A DNA stretch of 64,000 nucleotides from a virus (Duplodnaviria; Caudoviricetes): IMG/VR virus record IMGVR_UViG_3300028197_000002. One strand, 5' to 3'. The position numbers were made by a program, and so were the translations under genes. This document shows positions 10,490 through 27,419 of this stretch, piece by piece; position 1 is the stretch's first letter; each line of letters opens with the position of its first letter. Below the pieces are notes generated by a model. The model saw only the letters and a list, made by a program, of their open reading frames with translations. It did not search any database and was not told the DNA's origin.

Positions 10490-13003
10490 ATGGCTTGGTG
10501 GGATTTCTACAAAATTTGGACTTATGAATTTGAAAAAGGACCTTTAGAGTTATCTAAAATTTCCAAAGATTCTCAAATAACCGGCGCAGGAGTAACTGTT
10601 CCTGATGCCATGCCGGATTTGCGGGGAGAATTATGGAGTGGAGGAGCTAAAGGCCAAGTTCGACTTCATGACAGTAATGACTTTATTGATCTTTCTACTG
10701 TTACAAATAGACAGTCCAGATATAACGAATACGAAAGATTAAGAAACATACCAGAAATAGAAATGGCTATGACCACTATTTCTGATGAAGCTTGCGTTGC
10801 TGGAGATACTAAAATCTCCACTCTATTCGAAGGATACGTTCCGATAGAAAAGTTAGCAGCACGATGGAAAAAAGATCCAAGTCCTTTTCTTGTTTATTGC
10901 TGGGACTTTGAAAAACAAGACTACACTTTAGGTTGGGCTTATGATCCTAGATTTGTAAAAAGAGAAAAAACATTAAAAATAAAATTAGATGATGGAAGTC
11001 ATTTCATAGTCACAGCTGACCATAGGATTCTTGATGCAGATCAGAATTGGATTAACGCTGGAGATTTGAAAGAAGGCGGGGAGATTATGCCTTTTTATAA
11101 AATTAATCCTAATAGGTCTTTAAATAAAATTATTCATAACCAATTTCCAAGGATTTATACGAAAAATGGATGGAAAAATGAAAGACAATTCATAGAAGAT
11201 TGGAAATCTAATGGGTCTAATGAAAAACAAAAAGAAGTTCAGAAAGCCATAAGACTTTTGTCAAGTGGAGCTAGCACAAGACAAACAGCAGACATGATGG
11301 GGAGAAGCTGGCCTACGTTAGATTCTTGGATTAAAAAAGAAGGATTTACTACCAAAGAATTAAAATGGCTAGGAGAAAAAAGAAAACAAAGGAAAATTAT
11401 AGGCATTCAAGAATATAACGAAATGAATGTTTATGATCTTTCTGTAAAGAATCACAAAAATTTCTGTACCGACTCAACAATCATGCATAATTGCCAAAGA
11501 GACGATTATAATAATGTTTTGGAAATAGAGTGCGGCAACGAAGAAGTTAAAAAAGAGCTTGAGTTTTTATGTTTTAATAGAAAAATGTTGAACATAAATA
11601 GAAAAGCTTGGTCTATGGTTAAAAGACTTTGCATTTTTGGAGATGGTTTCTATGAACTAATAACAAATCCAGAAAGCCCAAAAGACGGCGTTTTAAAAAT
11701 GCAAGAGCTTCCTCCTGACTCTATGTATAAAATCGTCACTACAAAAGGAAAATTAGTAGAATTTCAACAATCTAAAGAAGGACCTGATTATCAATCCTTA
11801 ACAAGAGGCACTATAACAAAAGCTACAGATTTAGAATTAATGCAATCTACTGCCATAAGATTTAGTCCTCATCAAGTGGTTCATATGTATTTGGGCGAAG
11901 ATAGGAAAACTTTTTATCCATATGGTCAGTCATTGGTTGAACCTGCCCGAGGGCCAGCCCATCAGTTAAGATTAATGGAAGATGCAATGGTGGTTTACAG
12001 ATTAAGTAGAGCACCAGAAAGAAGAGTTTTTTACATTGATGTTGGACAACTTCCTCCATTTAAAGCAGAGGCTTTTGTGGAAAGAATGAAAGATCAATTC
12101 CGAAAAAAGAAGACGGGCCGTCAAGGAGGTCCGAACAACGCCAATGTTGTTGAGGAAAGATGGTCAGCACCAGCAGCAGATGAAGATTATTGGTTGCCTA
12201 TTCGACCTCAAGCTAATACAAGAATAGAAACATTACCGGGAGCGCAAAATCTAGGAGAAATAGATGACGCCCTGTATTTCAGAAACAAGCTTTTTACTGC
12301 GCTTAACTTTCCTAAAAATTACATAAACACAGAAGATCCTAATCAAACAAGAATAACTCTTTCTGCTCAAGATGCTAGATTCGCAAGAATGGTAGAAAGA
12401 ATTCAATCAAGTATAGAAGATGGAATTCTTCAGATATGTGAAACCCATTTAGAGATGAGAGGATTTCCATTTGATCAGTATGAAAATTTAAAAATTAAAA
12501 TGACTCCGCCAAGTGCTTGGAAAGAACTAAGTGAAGCGGAAATTCAAAATAATAGAATAAACGTAGTAACACAATTAAAAAGCTCTTTGATAATGTCAGA
12601 CTACGATTTATTAACTAAATTCATGAAATATACTGAATCTGAGGCTGAAGGTATTATATCTCGCAATAAAATACAAAAATTGGAAGATCTAAAAATTCAA
12701 GTTGTTGGACAAAATCCTCAATTATTAGGAGTAGGCACTCCGGGAAATAATGAAGAAGGAACAGAGATAGGAGTTAATGCAGAAGGTCCAAATCCGATGC
12801 TCGGAATAGATGGAGAAAATCAAGAATCTGGACAAGAAGGAACTCCAAATTTAGAAGATATGTCTGATCAGGGGTCAGATGCTAAATCTAATGTTGAGCT
12901 AGAATCTCCCTCAGATGAAGAAATTAAAAAATATGATTTGGGAATAGAAAATTATAATAAAACAGTTGATGATGAAGTAATTGACTGGAGCGAGGAGGAA
13001 TAA
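10490..13003 (+). CDS. gp20: portal protein (T4 gp20-like) interrupted by an intein
   Basis: YRLSRAPERRVFYIDVGQLP, EDYWLP, LPGAQNLGEIDDALYFRNKLFTALNFP. Confidence 0.95.
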   Translation: MAWWDFYKIWTYEFEKGPLELSKISKDSQITGAGVTVPDAMPDLRGELWSGGAKGQVRLHDSNDFIDLSTVTNRQSRYNEYERLRNIPEIEMAMTTISDEACVAGDTKISTLFEGYVPIEKLAARWKKDPSPFLVYCWDFEKQDYTLGWAYDPRFVKREKTLKIKLDDGSHFIVTADHRILDADQNWINAGDLKEGGEIMPFYKINPNRSLNKIIHNQFPRIYTKNGWKNERQFIEDWKSNGSNEKQKEVQKAIRLLSSGASTRQTADMMGRSWPTLDSWIKKEGFTTKELKWLGEKRKQRKIIGIQEYNEMNVYDLSVKNHKNFCTDSTIMHNCQRDDYNNVLEIECGNEEVKKELEFLCFNRKMLNINRKAWSMVKRLCIFGDGFYELITNPESPKDGVLKMQELPPDSMYKIVTTKGKLVEFQQSKEGPDYQSLTRGTITKATDLELMQSTAIRFSPHQVVHMYLGEDRKTFYPYGQSLVEPARGPAHQLRLMEDAMVVYRLSRAPERRVFYIDVGQLPPFKAEAFVERMKDQFRKKKTGRQGGPNNANVVEERWSAPAADEDYWLPIRPQANTRIETLPGAQNLGEIDDALYFRNKLFTALNFPKNYINTEDPNQTRITLSAQDARFARMVERIQSSIEDGILQICETHLEMRGFPFDQYENLKIKMTPPSAWKELSEAEIQNNRINVVTQLKSSLIMSDYDLLTKFMKYTESEAEGIISRNKIQKLEDLKIQVVGQNPQLLGVGTPGNNEEGTEIGVNAEGPNPMLGIDGENQESGQEGTPNLEDMSDQGSDAKSNVELESPSDEEIKKYDLGIENYNKTVDDEVIDWSEEE
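10793..11491 (+). mobile_element. 233 aa class-1 intein in the portal (aa 102-334)
   Basis: Block A CVAGDTKI, block B VTADHRIL, block F VYDLSVKNHKNF, block G HN followed by Cys+1; spliced extein reads ISDEA-CQRDD. Confidence 0.92.
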
Positions 13004-18279: not shown

Positions 18280-19464
18280 TTAATTTTTCCAACCATTTTC
18301 TAGTATTCTCATAGCATTAGAATACATTATTTTGTTTATAGTAGAATTGTGATATCCCATGCCTTCTAGGTATCTAACTATCCAAGGAAGATCTTCAACA
18401 TATGCTATTTCATCTGGAGGATCTGTAAATCCGTCAAAATCCGTACCTATAGCTGGAACTTCTTCTCCAGCAACATTTATTATATGATTTAAGGTTGATT
18501 CTACGTGATGAAGTCCTGACCCTTCTGGCTTGTGGGGAGAAAGCCAGTAATTCATAAATATAACACCTACAGTGCATTTTCTTTTAGCAAACCATTTAAG
18601 CTCATCATCAGATAAATTATACGGAAGTCTATGAAGTGCTTGTACGCCTACATGAGAAGCTATTACAGAGCAGTCTTTGTCGTAATCATCAACTATATTG
18701 TAAACATCTTGTCGGCCTTTAGGAGTTAAATGAGAAACATCTATTATCATTCCTATTTCTAGCATCTGCTTTGCTATTCGTTTTCCTAACTCTGTTAGTC
18801 CATATCTTTCATCCCAAGTTCTTCTTAAACTTACATAATTTTTAATTGTTTTTCTTTCTGGTTCTGGGTATGGGAAAACGCAAGATTTAGTTAATGGATT
18901 ATTATAAAAATGAGCGAGAGTAAGATAAGCACAACCTTTTTCACTTAGTTTATTCAAACATTCTGTAATCGAATATTCTGAGGATACTAGTGAATGACCT
19001 CCCTCGACAGAATGCACAACAGAAGAAATTCCTTTTTCTTGATTTTCAAACAACTCAATAGGATTTCTAGCTATTTTAATTCCAACTTCTTTTGAAATTT
19101 CTTTTTCTAAAAAATCCATCATTCCAATGCAAGCTTCATAAGGACTTGGATTCAATATTCTCTTTCTAAATAAAGGAGAAAATTTAGAAAGAAATTTTAT
19201 AAGTGGAACATCATTTAGCCATTCTTTTTCTAAAACATAAGTTGTAGCAAGAGTTACATTGATATTATCTCTGAGCAAAGGAATTGTACTTCTTTGACTT
19301 AAAGGCCAAAAACTATCTCTAAATAATTTTCCTAAAAACTTTCTTTTACTCAATGTTCTTTCAAGCATATATCCTTTTAAATGAACATGATTATGCAAGT
19401 CTACAATCTTTACTGGGAAATCGCTTGCAATGTGTCTGTCTGTCTTAAGCATATTACTAATCAT
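18280..19464 (-). CDS. membrane dipeptidase (M19 family, amidohydrolase fold)
   Basis: VDLHNH, SVEGGH, YLTLAH, GMIIDVSH, IASHVG, NLSDDEL, AIGTDFDG. Confidence 0.9.
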   Translation of the reverse strand: MISNMLKTDRHIASDFPVKIVDLHNHVHLKGYMLERTLSKRKFLGKLFRDSFWPLSQRSTIPLLRDNINVTLATTYVLEKEWLNDVPLIKFLSKFSPLFRKRILNPSPYEACIGMMDFLEKEISKEVGIKIARNPIELFENQEKGISSVVHSVEGGHSLVSSEYSITECLNKLSEKGCAYLTLAHFYNNPLTKSCVFPYPEPERKTIKNYVSLRRTWDERYGLTELGKRIAKQMLEIGMIIDVSHLTPKGRQDVYNIVDDYDKDCSVIASHVGVQALHRLPYNLSDDELKWFAKRKCTVGVIFMNYWLSPHKPEGSGLHHVESTLNHIINVAGEEVPAIGTDFDGFTDPPDEIAYVEDLPWIVRYLEGMGYHNSTINKIMYSNAMRILENGWKN

Positions 19465-19525
19465 ATGTACACTTTCTAAACAGACAACAATAACCTAAGT
19501 AATTTAAAATGTAAAGTTTAAAAAT

Positions 19526-19565
19526 AAAAAAAGCCGGTTAACAACATTTCTATTGTTAACCGGCT
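19526..19565 (-). terminator. intrinsic terminator closing the candidate large RNA
   Basis: Perfect 13-bp stem agccggttaacaa (19532-19544) / ttgttaaccggct (19553-19565) with a U-tract on the minus strand. Confidence 0.9.
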
Positions 19566-20543
19566 CTCTTAGGCAGAACTTTCAATTTTCAATCCGCTAA
19601 TCTTTTGGGACAAACGAATCGAGCAAACATAGTCCATCACTGTTATTGTAGTAAATCACGGGTACGTTTCTGCCGTTGTGCTTTTAAACACACCCTTGGC
19701 TTATTTTGCCAACCCATGAGTGATAGTCGTAGTCTTTTAGCAACTCACTTTTCCTTAGCACTAATCAATTTCTTGCAGAATACTTGCCTGTTACCAGCAG
19801 CCCCTTCTGCGATTCTTTTCATAGTGATCCAAATTAATTTACTCCTAAAATTTACCACAACTTTCCTGTTATTATCGTGTTCAGGCAGACACGTCGTTTC
19901 TAAGATCTTTTTTGCGATGTTTACACATCTGATCTAGGCTCAACATCATTATTCACTACCGCCGTAGTTGCTCTGCACAAGGCAGAGGGCTTATCGAAAA
20001 CAAACTACTGAGTTTTCGATTTATCCCATGATGCTTATAGGATTGTTCTCAAGTTCTTTTGAGTTACTTTTCTTTCAAAAAATAATGCGTTCTCAAATTT
20101 CTTTAAGTCATTTGCCAGACTTTAATTTTATAACTATTTCTAATTATAAAATTTATAACCTAGCCATCCCATAACCGAAGCTCATCGTAGAGTTCCAAAA
20201 AGACTCTGCTATTATTAAAAACAATTTCGAATGAAGTTATTTTATAATTAGCACATTCTTGCGAATGTACTAGCTTCAAGATTAAGGCACTCTTGCGAAT
20301 GCAAAACCTTTCAGCAATAGTTCGATCCTTTCGTTCTGCTTCTACTAAGAATTTACAAACTTAGCTTTCACAGACCCAGCTCAAATAGGGTTTTGGCTTT
20401 TGTACTTAAAAATCTGCTTTCACAGATAATTAACCAGCCCTACGATTTATTTTTTTCACAAGCATCTTTCGATACTTGCAAGGACTTTTTTCAATTGTCA
20501 AAGATCAATTCAATGAGTTGTTGCTTCCAACGTGTCATTGATG
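19566..20543 (-). ncRNA. candidate giant structured non-coding RNA (~1 kb), family unassigned
   Basis: No minus-strand ORF of 60 aa or more; promoter, leader and terminator bracket it; hairpins capped by GAAA, GCAA, GCAA and GUAA, a 9-bp helix at 19993-20020, and a long-range GGCAGAA/UUCUGCC helix. Confidence 0.75.
20495..20506 (-). promoter_or_regulatory. boxA-like antitermination sequence GAUCUUUGACAA
   Basis: Resembles rrn boxA (GxUCUUUGAAAA/UGCUCUUUAACA) and directly follows a 5' hairpin. Confidence 0.55.
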
Positions 20544-20549
20544 TTTCCC

Positions 20550-20577
20550 AATATAACGATTGCGTTTCATGTTGCAA
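20550..20577 (-). promoter_or_regulatory. sigma70-like promoter for the candidate RNA
   Basis: TTGCAA (20577-20572), 16 nt spacer, TATATT (20555-20550) on the minus strand. Confidence 0.5.
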
Positions 20578-20806
20578 GCCCCTTGTCACAAAAAAACAAG
20601 TATTTCTTTTCTACCTCTAAAAAATAAGGGCTTATGCTTTTATTTCTTTGCAAAAATCTGTTTCAAAGTCTCTTCAAAACTCTAAAACTTTTTCTTTAGT
20701 TCAATCACAAAGGCTATAAATTCAACTTTATTTTTAATATTATTATTAAAAATAAAATAAAGCTTTATTTTTAATACATATTTCCAAAGGAATTTGGAGG
20801 TATTTT

Positions 20807-21652
20807 ATGAAAATAATTATATTTTTAATTGCTCTATTCTTTGCAATTTCACCTTGTTTAGCTGGAACTATAGAACCCGGAGTTCCTGATTCAAAATACT
20901 TAAAGTATGGAGAAAAGCACAATTGCGTACTCCCAATAATGGGACATTACGCCGATTCACTAAACAGATCTTTCAAAGGATCATGTGTATTAATTAGTGA
21001 AAATTATATCTTAACTGCTGCTCATGTGGTTTATGGCTCAATGACTCAGTATGTGGTTTATGAAGGGAAAGCCTATCCACTAAGCATTGTCGCTGTTCAT
21101 GCAGGGTTTGATCCAAAAAAAATGGGAACAAATGATATCGCAATAGGAAGACTGCAAAGGCCAATAAAATTAGATTTTTATCCAGAAATTTATAATAAAA
21201 AAGACGAGAAAGGCAAAGTGTGCAGTATGGCTGGATATGGAAACACAGGAACTTTTGACACTGGTTGGAAGCCAGAAAAATACGATCATAAAAAAAGAGC
21301 TGGATCTAATATGATTTTTAATATCGAAAAAAATTGCTTGTTGACATCAGTAACCGATCCTTCTGGTACCGATCTTGAATTTCTCATAGCTCCCGGAGAT
21401 TCAGGAGGAGGTTTATTCATTGACCAGAAGCTCGCAGGAATCAATTCAGCGGTAATTGCCGCAGACGGCAACCCAAACAGCGATTATGGCGATTTGGGCT
21501 GTCACACGCGTGTCAGTGACTATGTGGAGTGGATCTCAAAAACCCAAGAATTAATTGAAGTTCTTATTGATCTAGAGGAAAAACAAAAAGAAAAGAAGGA
21601 TGAGTTGCCGGAACTACTAAAAAAAGCAATTCGATCTAGAAAAGAAAGTTAA
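20807..21652 (+). CDS. secreted trypsin-like (S1) serine protease
   Basis: Signal peptide; catalytic triad LTAAHV, NDIAI, GDSGGG; SD GGAGG. Confidence 0.92.
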   Translation: MKIIIFLIALFFAISPCLAGTIEPGVPDSKYLKYGEKHNCVLPIMGHYADSLNRSFKGSCVLISENYILTAAHVVYGSMTQYVVYEGKAYPLSIVAVHAGFDPKKMGTNDIAIGRLQRPIKLDFYPEIYNKKDEKGKVCSMAGYGNTGTFDTGWKPEKYDHKKRAGSNMIFNIEKNCLLTSVTDPSGTDLEFLIAPGDSGGGLFIDQKLAGINSAVIAADGNPNSDYGDLGCHTRVSDYVEWISKTQELIEVLIDLEEKQKEKKDELPELLKKAIRSRKES

Positions 21653-21722: not shown

Positions 21723-21914
21723 ATGGCTGATAAAGCAAAAGAATTTGATGGGAAAGAGCTTGCTCTTTTATTTACCACAATAATATTGCCGCCACTAGGC
21801 GTTTTTCTTCAAAAGGGAATAAGCGCTCATTTCTGGCTTAATTTAATTTTAACTTTTTTTGGTTTTTGGGTTTGTGGAATTGTTCATGGACTATATGTAC
21901 TACTCAAAAAATAA
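21723..21914 (+). CDS. YqaE/Pmp3 family proteolipid membrane protein
   Basis: ILPPLGVFL...HFWLNLILTFFG...GIVHGLYVL; SD AAGGAGG. Confidence 0.88.
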   Translation: MADKAKEFDGKELALLFTTIILPPLGVFLQKGISAHFWLNLILTFFGFWVCGIVHGLYVLLKK

Positions 21915-25878: not shown

Positions 25879-26246
25879 AGCCAGAATTTACTAAGCCAAA
25901 AATAGTCGAAAAATCATGGGGTAGAGAATTGTGGATTCGAAATACCTCCAGTTATTGTGGCAAAATTCTTGAGTTCGATAAAGATAAGCATTTTTCTATG
26001 CATTATCATCTTAAAAAAGAAGAAACTTGGTTTGTTTTGAATGGAAGTTTTTTAATGGAATATTTCGATCTTGAAAAAGCTATTAGAAAAAACAAACAAA
26101 TAAAAAAAGGAGACGTAGTTCATCTGCGGATGGGAGTGTTGCATAAACTTACCGCCTTAGAAGATGGAAAGATTATGGAAGTATCGACAGAACACTTTGA
26201 TAGCGATAGCTACAGAGTAGAGCCATCATATTTGGTGAAAATGTAG
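25875..26246 (+). CDS. cupin-domain protein (sugar isomerase-like)
   Basis: KSWGRELW, SMHYHLKKEETW, GVLHKL, EVST. Confidence 0.82.
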   Translation: MKPEFTKPKIVEKSWGRELWIRNTSSYCGKILEFDKDKHFSMHYHLKKEETWFVLNGSFLMEYFDLEKAIRKNKQIKKGDVVHLRMGVLHKLTALEDGKIMEVSTEHFDSDSYRVEPSYLVKM

Positions 26247-26320
26247 AATGAAAATTTATAAATTTAATTTCATAAACAATATATACTTCTGTAATGAAAC
26301 TTTAACATAGGAGGTTTATA

Positions 26321-26557
26321 ATGGCTTCATTTACACTTGATTTAGTAGGTGCTCCACGTAACATGGCTAGTGAGGGTGGACTTGACACATCAATTAATTA
26401 TTCTGGTGTCTCTCTACAAAGAACTGGTTACATCGAAACTGTTGACGCTAATGGAAACAGAAAGATGAACGTAAGAGTAGCTGACGGCGCAACTTTCACA
26501 GACGTTGCTCAAGCTCTCACAGATCTTACCAATGCTGGTCACAATTTCATTGTCTAA
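26321..26557 (+). CDS. small protein paralog 1 (MASFTLDL family)
   Basis: AGGAGG SD; 78 aa. Confidence 0.88.
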   Translation: MASFTLDLVGAPRNMASEGGLDTSINYSGVSLQRTGYIETVDANGNRKMNVRVADGATFTDVAQALTDLTNAGHNFIV

Positions 26558-26597
26558 TTTTAGACATATATTATAATTTTATTTTATCATTATAATA

Positions 26598-26629
26598 GCA
26601 AGCCTCGCCTTTTGGCGGGGCTTGTTTTA
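26598..26629 (+). terminator. intrinsic terminator after paralog 1
   Basis: gcaagcctcgcc TTTT ggcggggcttgt followed by T residues. Confidence 0.85.
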
Positions 26630-26714
26630 TGTAGAATGGAAATTTCTAAATCCAATTTCATTTTTCATAACAGTATATAATTTTGTAATGAAACTTTAAC
26701 ATAGGAGGTTTATA

Positions 26715-26993
26715 ATGGCTTCATTTACACTTGATTTAATAGGTGCTCCACTTAACATGGCTAGTGAGGGTGGACTTGACACAACGCTCGTTAATTTTGG
26801 CGATGATTCTGCGCAAAGAACTGGCTACATCGAAACTGTTGACGCTAATGGAAACAGAAAGATGAACGTAAAAATAGCTCCTCAAGTTCATGAATGGGCG
26901 TTTCAGTCCCTTAATTTTACAGACGTTCCTCAAACTCTCACAGATCTTACCAATGGTAATGTCCGTGGTCACAATTTCATTGTCGGAGCATAA
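26715..26993 (+). CDS. small protein paralog 2 with loop insertions
   Basis: AGGAGG SD; 92 aa. Confidence 0.88.
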   Translation: MASFTLDLIGAPLNMASEGGLDTTLVNFGDDSAQRTGYIETVDANGNRKMNVKIAPQVHEWAFQSLNFTDVPQTLTDLTNGNVRGHNFIVGA

Positions 26994-27092
26994 TTTTAAC
27001 AGTCTAGTTTTAGACATATATTATAATTTTATTTTATCATTATAATAACAGTATATAATTCTGTAATGAAACTTTAACATAGGAGGTTTATA

Positions 27093-27335
27093 ATGGCTTC
27101 ATTCACACTTGATTTAGTAGGTGCTCCACTTAACATAGCTAGCGAGGGTGGACTTGACACATCAATTAGTTATTCTGGGGTCTCTCTACAAAGAACTGGT
27201 TACATCGAAACTGTTGACGCTAATGGAAACAGAAAGATGAATGTAAGAACGCCTGATGGTGCAACTTTTACAGATGTAGCTCAAACAATCGACATGCTTA
27301 CCAATGCAGGTCACAATTTCATTGTCGGAGCGTAA
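27093..27335 (+). CDS. small protein paralog 3
   Basis: AGGAGG SD; 80 aa. Confidence 0.88.
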   Translation: MASFTLDLVGAPLNIASEGGLDTSISYSGVSLQRTGYIETVDANGNRKMNVRTPDGATFTDVAQTIDMLTNAGHNFIVGA

Positions 27336-27389
27336 TTTTAACGGTCTAATTTTAGACATATATTATAATTTTATTTTATCATTATAATA

Positions 27390-27419
27390 GCAAGCCTCGT
27401 CTTTTGACGGGGCTTGTTT
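27390..27419 (+). terminator. intrinsic terminator after paralog 3
   Basis: gcaagcctcgtc TTTT gacggggcttgt; compensatory C-G to T-A change relative to the 26598 copy. Confidence 0.85.

What the first reader, a model, noticed from the sequence alone, without database searches (positions are those of the whole stretch)
19526..20577. Candidate ~1 kb giant structured non-coding RNA with its own promoter and terminator
Seen: in an otherwise densely coding genome, about 1.3 kb lacks a credible CDS. On the minus strand there are CAAGUAUC-GAAA-GAUGCUUG (20459-20478), GCAUUC-GCAA-GAGUGC (20287-20302), UAGUACAUUC-GCAA-GAAUGUGCUA (20249-20272), a 9-bp AUCGAAAAC/GUUUUCGAU helix (19993-20020), CUCUGC/GCAGAG (19971-19987), GAUGU-GUAA-ACAUC (19916-19929) and a long-range GGCAGAA/UUCUGCC helix (19668-19674 with 19572-19578) that closes just before a 13-bp terminator. 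G-U pairs and GNRA loops read correctly only on the minus strand. The motifs UCUGUGAAAGC (20364, 20416) and CAUUCGCAAGA (20257, 20291) are each repeated. Knowledge: very large ornate phage-associated RNAs such as GOLLD and ROOL exist. Inference: this may be a new member or a new class, sitting just downstream of the capsid operon.
Basis: partly seen in the sequence, partly recalled or inferred. Interest (0 to 1): 0.9.

Follow-up and report, generated by a model that had tools for sequence, protein, structure and literature searches.

The report
New giant structured RNA in huge phages
The gene-free 1.3 kb stretch encodes a roughly 1,000-base, intricately folded non-coding RNA with its own promoter and terminator, and it belongs to a conserved RNA family in uncultured huge phages that matches no catalogued RNA family and whose function is unknown.

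Summary
The observation and most of the interpretation hold. The 1,342-bp gap between a divergent M19 dipeptidase gene and a trypsin-like gene has no conserved ORF. I found 11 full-length and 3 partial homologues, 55-70% identical between lineages, in viral and metagenome contigs. A covariance model added a diverged member and one distant relative. All share a sigma-70-like promoter, a body of about 0.9 kb and an intrinsic terminator whose stem covaries. The consensus fold has about 259 base pairs and 92.5% of pair cells are canonical. Of these pairs, 122 are both compensatory and at least 90% canonical, against 6-14 in slid controls. Two pseudoknots and a long-range closing helix also covary. 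A homologue held out of the structure derivation pairs at 73.5% of positions, against 35-47% for controls. Indels and substitutions show no codon pattern. No Rfam 15 family matches, including GOLLD, ROOL, OLE, RNase P and introns. GenBank phages and 185,579 prokaryote species genomes gave no match. Neighbouring genes differ between phages, so this is a self-contained, trans-acting RNA gene. Expression and function remain untested. The closest analogues by kind, not by homology, are GOLLD and ROOL.

The parts
20550..20582 (-). Sigma-70-like promoter. It has a conserved GGGGC, a -35 box TTGCAA (20577-20572), a 16-nt spacer (as reported by the scan), and a -10 box TATATT (20555-20550). The predicted start is near 20543.
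   Evidence: Promoter scan. The GGGnCTTGY...TAnAnT motif is conserved in all full-length homologues. It occurs only once in the 64-kb window.
19526..20543 (-). Predicted RNA transcript of about 1,018 nt. Other family members are 877-925 nt.
   Evidence: Bounded by the conserved promoter and terminator. Fold z = -7.7. Family alignment A3.
20514..20537 (-). 5' hairpin (H1).
   Evidence: 8 bp, 90% canonical, 3 compensatory pairs.
20493..20504 (-). Nearly invariant box UCUUUGACAAUU in the 5' region (the consensus fold pairs part of it in the non-covarying helix H2).
   Evidence: Conserved in all full-length members and in the distant relative G009.
20482..20486 (-). 5' strand (AGUCC) of a long-range closing helix.
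   Evidence: Pairs with GGACU at 19635-19631. 98% canonical, 3 compensatory pairs; for example L156 has GAUCC/GGAUC.
19631..19635 (-). 3' strand (GGACU) of the long-range closing helix.
20456..20481 (-). GAAA-capped hairpin H4.
   Evidence: 11 bp, 97% canonical, 7 compensatory pairs.
20184..20446 (-). 5' domain, closed by helix 20446-20438 / 20192-20184.
   Evidence: The closing helix has 9 bp and 7 compensatory pairs. The inner helices H6-H12 covary.
20337..20386 (-). Lineage-specific insertion 1. It contains the second copy of UCUGUGAAAGC.
   Evidence: Absent from all other full-length members.
20263..20291 (-). Lineage-specific insertion 2, a duplicated GCAA-capped hairpin that accounts for the CAUUCGCAAGA repeat.
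   Evidence: Absent from all other full-length members.
19936..20183 (-). Central domain, closed by 20183-20176 / 19942-19936. It contains a GAAA-capped hairpin (20151-20128) and the helix 20034-20028 / 19949-19943.
   Evidence: Helices H13-H23. H15 has 8 of 8 pairs compensatory and H16 has 10 of 11. Core-domain statistics.
19995..20020 (-). Hairpin AUCGAAAAC/GUUUUCGAU. Its loop (20009-20005) pairs with 19654-19650 to form pseudoknot PK-B.
   Evidence: Stem has 8 compensatory pairs. PK-B has 5 bp, 97% canonical and 3 compensatory pairs (GUAG/UUAC, GCAG/CUGC, GGUAAG/CUUGCC).
19650..19654 (-). 3' partner of pseudoknot PK-B.
19971..19987 (-). Hairpin CUCUGC/GCAGAG.
   Evidence: The stem changes compensatorily in every lineage, as seen in the column print-out.
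19955..19968 (-). Hairpin with an invariant GGCG loop, followed by the conserved junction AUARUGAURUUGAGCC.
   Evidence: 5 bp, 100% canonical, 5 of 5 compensatory. This block served as the scan pattern that found most homologues.
19903..19935 (-). Variable-length hairpin that includes GAUGU-GUAA-ACAUC.
   Evidence: The base helix covaries (4 pairs). The tip is present in some lineages only.
19865..19895 (-). H-type pseudoknot. The helix GACGUG/CACGAU has CCUG (19885-19882) in its loop, which pairs with CAGG (19868-19865).
   Evidence: PK-A has 4 bp, 100% canonical and 4 of 4 compensatory. In G004 the pairing is CUCCUC/GAGGAG.
19726..19861 (-). 3' domain: a long helix stack with a GUAA-capped hairpin (19812-19773).
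   Evidence: H26 has 22 bp with 17 compensatory. H28 has 15 bp with 11 compensatory.
19636..19724 (-). Helices AUCAC/GUGAU and CAUGGGU/ACCCGUG, plus an inner hairpin.
   Evidence: H29-H31. H30 has 6 of 7 pairs compensatory.
19589..19622 (-). Hairpin H32.
   Evidence: 11 bp, 97% canonical, 4 compensatory pairs.
19668..19674 (-).
   Evidence: Pairs with UUCUGCC at 19578-19572. It is kept with changes in other lineages, for example GGUAGAG/UUCUAUC and GGCGGAAGG/CCUUUCGCC.
19572..19578 (-). UUCUGCC, the 3' strand of that helix.
19526..19570 (-). Intrinsic terminator: a long stem with an invariant GAAA loop closed by an A-U pair, then a U-run.
   Evidence: Terminator scan. 17 bp, 98% canonical, 12 compensatory pairs.

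Best explanation
The region is a stand-alone gene for a large, highly structured non-coding RNA. The RNA is about 1,020 nt in the window and about 880-925 nt in relatives. It belongs to a previously uncatalogued family found so far only in uncultured phages with T4-type capsid genes and very large genomes.

Inferred mechanism: host-type sigma-70 RNA polymerase starts at a promoter conserved with the RNA. Transcription runs on the minus strand and stops at an intrinsic terminator. The GAAA-capped terminator hairpin appears to be part of the fold. The RNA folds into several domains. These are tied together by a long-range AGUCC/GGACU helix, a second long-range helix, an H-type pseudoknot, a loop-to-strand pseudoknot, and several conserved GNRA loops and A-rich junctions.

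The flanking genes differ between phages and the unit carries its own start and stop signals. It therefore most likely acts in trans as a folded RNA particle during infection, either alone or with protein. It is not a leader or a regulator of a neighbouring gene.

The biochemical role is unknown. My ranking of the possibilities is inference only: a GOLLD/ROOL-like architectural or self-assembling particle about 0.35, a protein-binding decoy or RNP scaffold about 0.3, a ribozyme about 0.15.
For: What is shown:
- Exact features and an empty gene gap.
- Strand-specific excess stability: window z = -7.7 sense against -4.2 antisense, and L099 z = -14.3 against -4.0.
- Collinear homology from promoter to terminator in 11 full-length and 3 partial sequences, 55-70% identical between lineages.
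- Consensus fold of 259 pairs with 92.5% canonical cells. 168 pairs show two-sided compensatory change. 122 pairs are both compensatory and at least 90% canonical, against 6-14 with slid partners and 11.8 +/- 3.2 with random re-pairing.
- Tool statistics on the core domain: 97.7% of cells paired, 23 of 38 pairs compensatory, and 0 of 500 shuffles reach this.
- Covarying pseudoknots and long-range helices.
- G004 was found later with the covariance model and not used to derive the structure. It pairs at 73.5% of predicted pairs against 35-47% for slid controls.
- G-U cells number 410 and A-C cells 59, which fixes the strand.
- Single-sequence MFE folds recover 49-78% of the consensus pairs.
- No conserved ORF. 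Only 12% of indels are multiples of three, and substitutions show no codon periodicity.
- No Pfam or PHROG match for the internal ORFs.
- Neighbouring genes are not conserved between lineages.
- One copy per genome in G001, G002 and G006.
- The promoter motif occurs once in the window.
Against: - There are no expression data, so the promoter, start site and transcript are inferred from consensus and conservation only.
- The consensus structure was derived from the same alignment used to count covariation. G004 and the MFE comparison offset this only partly.
- R-scape-type statistics with a phylogenetic null were not available.
- There are only about 16 sequences from about 11 lineages.
- Some 300-nt sub-windows have fold z-scores (-1.1 to -5.3) that overlap the coding controls (mean -1.0, sd 1.4, minimum -5.1).
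- Most related phage contigs searched lack the RNA. They are 9-69% complete by CheckV's estimate, so absence there is uninformative.
- No conserved partner gene, no self-complementary covarying loops and no consistent link to tRNA genes point to a function.
Confidence: 0.85

Rival explanations
1. It is a highly diverged member of an already described large RNA family (GOLLD, ROOL, OLE, RNase P RNA, or an ORF-less or permuted group II intron) that the Rfam models fail to recognise.
For: It matches GOLLD and ROOL in size, ornate fold and phage origin (PMC12286853). The 5' strand of the closing helix reads AAAGUCC, the same heptamer as the P4 5' strand of bacterial RNase P RNA (from my own recollection). 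In the distant relative G009 a tRNA gene lies directly upstream, as is often the case for GOLLD and ROOL.
Against: Permissive cmscan runs found no Rfam 15 match: E up to 10 on the window region and E up to 1 or 0.1 on nine homologues. The 3' partner of the closing helix (GGACUAU) and its flanks do not resemble the RNase P P4 3' strand. There is no group II domain V match. The unit has its own promoter and terminator and is not inserted in a gene. No tRNA gene lies next to the RNA in any of the 11 loci of the main family; the only calls are one about 3.3 kb away in G002 and one odd call about 13 kb away in L246.
Confidence: 0.05
2. The structure serves the element's own spread. On this view it is a mobile or selfish RNA-gene cassette, such as a relic of a retroelement or an intron-like or satellite-derived element, and not a phage function.
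For: The promoter-to-terminator unit lies at different genomic positions, beside unrelated genes, in different phages. Its presence among related contigs is patchy.
Against: There are no flanking repeats and no adjacent transposase, reverse transcriptase or integrase gene. Each genome checked has one copy. Divergence is deep, with purifying selection on about 260 base pairs. No copy was found in 185,579 prokaryote species genomes with the scan pattern.
Confidence: 0.06
3. It is a cis-acting element: a very long leader or attenuator of the downstream M19 dipeptidase gene, or an antisense regulator of plus-strand transcripts.
For: In the window the M19 gene follows on the same strand, 62 bp after the terminator.
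Against: A strong, conserved intrinsic terminator ends the unit. M19 homologues in other phages sit in dense operons with no such upstream region. Other family members are followed by unrelated genes, some on the opposite strand.
Confidence: 0.03
4. It is protein-coding, either as small genes or under an alternative genetic code, or it is a decayed gene remnant with chance hairpins.
For: The window has plus-strand ORFs of 110, 75 and 68 aa inside the region.
Against: No ORF is conserved in position or frame among the homologues. 88% of indels are not multiples of three. Mismatch rates are equal at the three codon positions. No Pfam or PHROG match. All other genes of the window read normally under table 11. 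Compensatory changes are far above controls.
Confidence: 0.01

Closest known systems
[quoted passage not shown]
   Same: Both are large, with many GOLLD members exceeding 800 nt. Both have a multi-domain fold rich in pseudoknots, are encoded by phages, come from aquatic metagenomes among other sources, and have unknown function (PMC12286853).
   Different: There is no match to the Rfam model even with permissive settings. The main family shows no regular association with tRNA genes. Conservation is fairly even along the RNA, 59-72% per segment, and does not split into a conserved 3' half and a variable 5' half. The oligomeric state is unknown.
ROOL RNA (Rumen-Originating, Ornate, Large)
   Same: It is a phage or prophage-encoded ornate RNA with multiple pseudoknots and no known protein partner or function (PMC12286853).
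   Different: ROOL is about 600 nt and is often near tRNA islands. This RNA has no Rfam match, comes from different phage lineages (huge phages with T4-type capsids), and is 50% longer.
OLE RNA
   Same: It is a large ornate non-coding RNA with many conserved helices and strongly conserved junction nucleotides.
   Different: OLE is a cellular RNA of Bacillota that works in a membrane RNP with the Oap proteins (PMC9723947, abstract). This RNA is phage-encoded, has no conserved neighbouring protein gene and has no Rfam match.
Bacterial RNase P RNA
   Same: Both have a long-range helix whose 5' strand reads AAAGUCC, followed directly by a hairpin, and which closes a multi-domain core. This resemblance is recalled from memory and is only a lead.
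   Different: There is no hit to any RNase P model. The 3' strand and the other universally conserved regions are not recognisable. This RNA is 2-3 times longer.

Membership tests
GOLLD RNA | Significant match to the Rfam GOLLD covariance model (shared sequence and structure core) | tested here: not met
   cmscan found no GOLLD hit at gathering threshold on the whole window, at E up to 10 on 19300-20900, or at E up to 1 or 0.1 on nine homologues.
GOLLD RNA | Encoded in phages or prophages | tested here: met
   The window carries T4-type portal, prohead protease and Gp23 capsid genes. The homologues lie in IMG/VR viral contigs.
GOLLD RNA | Frequently adjacent to tRNA genes | tested here: not met
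   ARAGORN found no tRNA in the window and none adjacent to the RNA in 11 loci. Only the distant relative G009 has a tRNA directly upstream.
GOLLD RNA | Universally conserved 3' half and poorly conserved 5' half | tested here: inconclusive
   Mean pairwise identity per segment is 59-72% with no clear split between halves. Large insertions do occur only in the 5' third.
GOLLD / ROOL | Homo-oligomeric nanocage held together by kissing loops and A-minor bridges | not testable with these tools
   A search for self-complementary loops that covary found none. This does not exclude other kinds of bridge.
ROOL RNA | Significant match to the Rfam ROOL covariance model | tested here: not met
RNase P RNA | Match to any Rfam RNase P model, and a P4 helix with both conserved strands | tested here: not met
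   No RNase P hit. Only the 5' heptamer AAAGUCC is shared. The 3' strand reads GGACUAU.
Group II intron (including ORF-less or permuted forms) | Domain V/VI match to the Rfam intron models, and insertion within a host gene with exon junctions | tested here: not met
   No intron model hit. The unit has its own promoter and terminator and lies between genes.
OLE RNA | Match to the Rfam OLE model, and linkage to oap genes in Bacillota | tested here: not met
   No hit. The setting is a phage with unrelated neighbouring genes.
Structured non-coding RNA (generic) | Conserved secondary structure supported by compensatory base changes above controls, with no coding signature | tested here: met

The most novel reading that the evidence does not exclude
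This is the founding member of an undescribed class of ornate RNAs of about 0.9 kb, specific to huge phages, that works as an RNA machine in its own right. It would be either a ribozyme or a self-assembling multimeric particle, evolutionarily unrelated to GOLLD, ROOL, OLE or RNase P. That would add another giant functional RNA to the very short list known from bacteria and their viruses.
Probability: 0.3. Interest if true: 0.92.

Novelty: new variant of a known kind. Interest (0 to 1): 0.8.

Why it matters
Bacterial and phage non-coding RNAs of this size and complexity are very rare. The known ones are rRNAs, RNase P, group I and II introns, tmRNA, OLE, GOLLD, ROOL, HEARO and raiA. Each has turned out to be a ribozyme, an RNP core or, most recently, an RNA-only nanocage (PMC12286853).

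This family has about 260 conserved base pairs, two covarying pseudoknots, conserved GNRA loops and its own transcription signals. It occurs in a clade of uncultured phages whose genomes are estimated at up to about 500 kb. It is ready for direct experimental work: the sequences, boundaries and a testable secondary structure are in hand. It could also be deposited as a new Rfam family, which would improve annotation of huge-phage genomes, where the locus is currently left blank.

Tried and rejected
Searches that found nothing:
- blastn of the window RNA and of two homologues against 50,697 GenBank phage records gave no match.
- blastn and nhmmer against 80 loci around capsid-gene relatives and 13 loci around M19 relatives found nothing. 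The RNA is not linked to either gene.
- The contigs carrying identical flanking proteins (JGI 3300025120, SRR8437077, SRR5247217) have 100% identical RNA regions, so they offer no variation.

Pattern scans:
- TTGACAATT(5-7)AAGTCCT returned 91 loci, about the number expected by chance, and added no new member.
- CTTTGACAATTNNAAACAAA added only G009, which was already known.
- The core pattern in genome contigs gave 8 loci, all chance matches in coding genes. The extra hits in metagenome contigs were also coding, mostly the same gene that recurs in Opitutales and Puniceicoccaceae genome assemblies.

Other negative or rejected results:
- LR756511.1 (595 kb) carries the closest GenBank capsid gene at 75% identity. 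It has no copy by BLAST or by covariance model.
- The covariance-model hit in G008 (15.6 bits) lacks all family motifs and was rejected.
- The search for palindromic loops that covary, a possible sign of self-kissing oligomers, found none.

Alternatives considered and rejected: RNase P, group II intron, retron, DGR, CRISPR, riboswitch and tmRNA. The grounds were no Rfam hit, no tRNA or tmRNA, no repeats and no associated protein genes.

Literature searches found no description of such an RNA. The IMG/VR survey of candidate structured RNAs reports motifs averaging 67 nt (PMC10690425).
Full report
**Setting**

The window is part of a 259-kb metagenomic contig (JGI 3300025120, Ga0209535_1000002). 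It comes from a phage with T4-type morphogenesis genes: a portal gene carrying an intein, a prohead protease and a Gp23 major capsid protein. The capsid protein is 79-90% identical to those of many uncultured viral contigs with GC content from 33% to 60%. It is 75% identical to a 595-kb uncultured phage genome in GenBank, and no more than 34% identical to any cultured phage. Related contigs of 251-343 kb are rated 50-69% complete by CheckV's estimate. The host phage therefore belongs to a clade of huge phages.

**The observation**

The region lies between two divergently oriented genes. These are an M19 dipeptidase gene (18280-19464, minus strand) and a trypsin-like protease gene (20807-21652, plus strand). 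The 1,342 bp between them (19465-20806) carry no called gene.

A sigma-70-like promoter lies at 20577-20550 (TTGCAA, 16-nt spacer as scanned, TATATT). A strong intrinsic terminator lies at 19570-19527.

The minus strand folds to -311.6 kcal/mol, z = -7.7 against dinucleotide shuffles. The plus strand gives -229.5 kcal/mol, z = -4.2. In 300-nt sub-windows the excess is smaller, z -1.1 to -5.3 against -1.0 +/- 1.4 for coding controls. This is expected when long-range helices are cut.

**Finding relatives**

Rfam 15 gave nothing, either at gathering thresholds on the whole window or at E up to 10 on the region. blastn against GenBank phages gave nothing, as did searches of loci around capsid or M19 homologues.

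Searching whole viral records behind the capsid relatives found three collinear blocks of 65-80% identity in two contigs, G001 and G002. The three-way alignment showed homology from the promoter to the terminator, with obvious compensatory changes.

Conserved blocks were then used as DNA patterns. Scans of IMG/VR, of 241 million metagenome records and of one genome per prokaryote species were screened with nhmmer. This produced 11 full-length and 3 partial sequences in about 9 lineages, 55-70% identical to each other. The genome-contig hits and the remaining metagenome hits were coding-sequence coincidences.

A covariance model of the core (R1) found two further members:
- a high-GC member in G004 that BLAST had missed (82 bits);
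- a distant relative in G009 (23 bits) that keeps nine family motifs in the same order and has its own terminator.

Positive genomes hold a single copy. Most other related contigs are negative, but they are small fragments.

**It is a structured RNA, read from the minus strand**

RNAalifold on the first alignment gave 138 pairs, of which 89 showed two-sided compensatory change. On the refined alignment, using full-length rows and RIBOSUM scoring, the consensus has 259 pairs. The covariation counts are:

| Measure | Consensus structure | Partners slid by 1-3 columns | Random re-pairing |
|---|---|---|---|
| Canonical pair cells | 92.5% | 35-43% | about 40% |
| Pairs with two-sided compensatory change | 168 | 53-63 | 57.4 +/- 5.3 (max 73) |
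| Pairs both compensatory and at least 90% canonical | 122 | 6-14 | 11.8 +/- 3.2 (max 23) |

The counting tool, applied to the 176-position core domain, gave 97.7% of cells paired and 23 of 38 pairs compensatory. None of 500 shuffles reached either value.

A blind scan of all column pairs recovered the same helices as its top hits. It also added several tertiary pairings:
- An H-type pseudoknot, 19885-19882 with 19868-19865, with 4 of 4 pairs compensatory. In G004 it reads CUCCUC/GAGGAG.
- A pairing between a hairpin loop (20009-20005) and a distant strand (19654-19650), seen in three covarying versions.
- The long-range AGUCC/GGACU helix (20486-20482 with 19635-19631), which becomes GAUCC/GGAUC in L156.

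G004 was not used to derive the structure and is only 46-52% identical to the other members. It forms canonical pairs at 73.5% of the predicted positions, against 35-47% for slid controls, and shows 35 pair types not seen elsewhere. Single-sequence MFE folds independently recover 49-78% of the consensus pairs.

G-U cells outnumber A-C cells 410 to 59. This fits only the minus strand, as do the orientations of the promoter and terminator. L099 gives z = -14.3 on the sense strand and -4.0 on the antisense strand.

**It is not coding**

The longest ORFs differ in frame and position between homologues. Only 12% of pairwise indels are multiples of three. Mismatch rates are equal at the three codon positions. 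The window's internal ORFs match no Pfam or PHROG family.

**Anatomy**

The RNA starts about 7 nt after the -10 box. Reading 5' to 3', it has:
1. a 5' hairpin;
2. an invariant UCUUUGACAAUU box;
3. the AGUCC strand of the closing helix;
4. a GAAA-capped hairpin;
5. a 5' domain;
6. a central domain, with a second GAAA-capped hairpin, a UUCG-like loop, an invariant GGCG loop and a conserved junction;
7. the H-type pseudoknot;
8. a 3' domain, with a GUAA-capped hairpin and long covarying stacks;
9. the return strand of the closing helix;
10. a further hairpin;
11. the second long-range helix;
12. a terminator hairpin with an invariant GAAA loop.

Conserved unpaired runs are A-rich (AAAAA, CAAAAG, AACGCA, GAGCA, AGAAAC). 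This composition suits A-minor tertiary contacts, though that reading is inference.

The window copy is about 100 nt longer than the others. The extra length comes from insertions at 20386-20337, 20291-20263 and 19709-19700.

**How it probably works**

The promoter motif GGGnCTTGY...TAnAnT is conserved with the RNA and occurs nowhere else in the 64-kb window. Neighbouring genes are unrelated from lineage to lineage. They include lectin-like, beta-propeller, phosphoesterase and peptidase genes, and some lie on the opposite strand.

The unit is therefore an autonomous gene whose product acts in trans. Transcription by host sigma-70 polymerase, and hence early or continuous expression, is inferred from the consensus only. 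The function is unknown. I found no conserved partner gene, no regular tRNA linkage and no self-complementary covarying loops. The one exception on tRNA linkage is G009, where a tRNA scoring 35 bits in Rfam lies directly upstream of the distant variant.

**Comparison with known RNAs**

By kind, the closest are GOLLD and ROOL. Both are phage-encoded, ornate, pseudoknotted RNAs of unknown function that form RNA-only nanocages (PMC12286853). By homology there is no link. No Rfam family matches the window or nine homologues under permissive settings.

The AAAGUCC heptamer at the closing helix recalls the RNase P P4 helix. The partner strand and the other conserved regions do not match, and no RNase P model hits. 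Group II intron, OLE, retron, CRISPR and riboswitch readings fail on Rfam results and on context.

Full-text searches found no description of such an RNA. The large IMG/VR survey of candidate structured RNAs reports motifs averaging 67 nt (PMC10690425).

**Verdict**

This is a real, previously uncatalogued family of giant structured non-coding RNAs in huge phages. It is new at the level of RNA family or class, and it belongs to the known phenomenon of large ornate phage RNAs.

Three things remain open: proof of transcription, statistics with a phylogenetic null on a larger alignment, and any evidence about function.

Noticed in passing
window 10490-13003 (+): The T4-type portal (Gp20) gene is 837 aa. 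It carries an intein splicing domain and an HTH_23 domain inserted ahead of the portal domain, so it looks like an intein-containing portal gene.
   Followed up: no
window 18280-19464 (-), 20807-21652 (+), 21723-21914 (+): The RNA gene is flanked by an M19 membrane dipeptidase gene, a trypsin-like serine protease gene and a Pmp3-family small membrane protein gene. These are unusual cargo for a phage. M19 homologues in other viral contigs are only 39-53% identical and sit in different contexts.
   Followed up: partly
L283:2160-2239 (-) (record IMGVR_UViG_3300025072_002799, G009): A tRNA gene (Rfam tRNA, 35.1 bits, not called by ARAGORN) lies directly upstream of the distant RNA variant, on the same strand. 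This is the only case of the tRNA adjacency that is typical of GOLLD and ROOL.
   Followed up: partly
L246:38-113 (+): ARAGORN calls a tRNA of unknown identity with a four-base anticodon (tttg) on the contig that carries the L156/L246 family member. It lies about 13 kb from the RNA.
   Followed up: no
window 20386-20337 and 20291-20263 (-): The window copy of the RNA has lineage-specific insertions that look like local hairpin duplications. The first repeats UCUGUGAAAGC and the second repeats CAUUCGCAAGA. They show that peripheral helices of this RNA grow by duplication.
   Followed up: yes
L095 and L097 (Logan SRR8437077, SRR5247217) against the window: The 1,342-bp RNA region is 100% identical in three independent samples. 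In two of them the adjacent M19 gene is called 4 codons shorter, and a downstream gene differs in length (303 aa against 310 aa).
   Followed up: partly
window 26246-27404: This is a second stretch of about 1.1 kb without any ORF over 100 aa. It holds only ORFs of 78-93 aa, probably small genes, and was not examined for RNA structure.
   Followed up: no
LR756511.1 523509-524981 (locus L272): The closest GenBank relative of the capsid gene (75% identity) is an unannotated 595-kb uncultured phage genome. Together with CheckV's completeness estimates for related contigs, this places the window's phage among the huge phages.
   Followed up: partly
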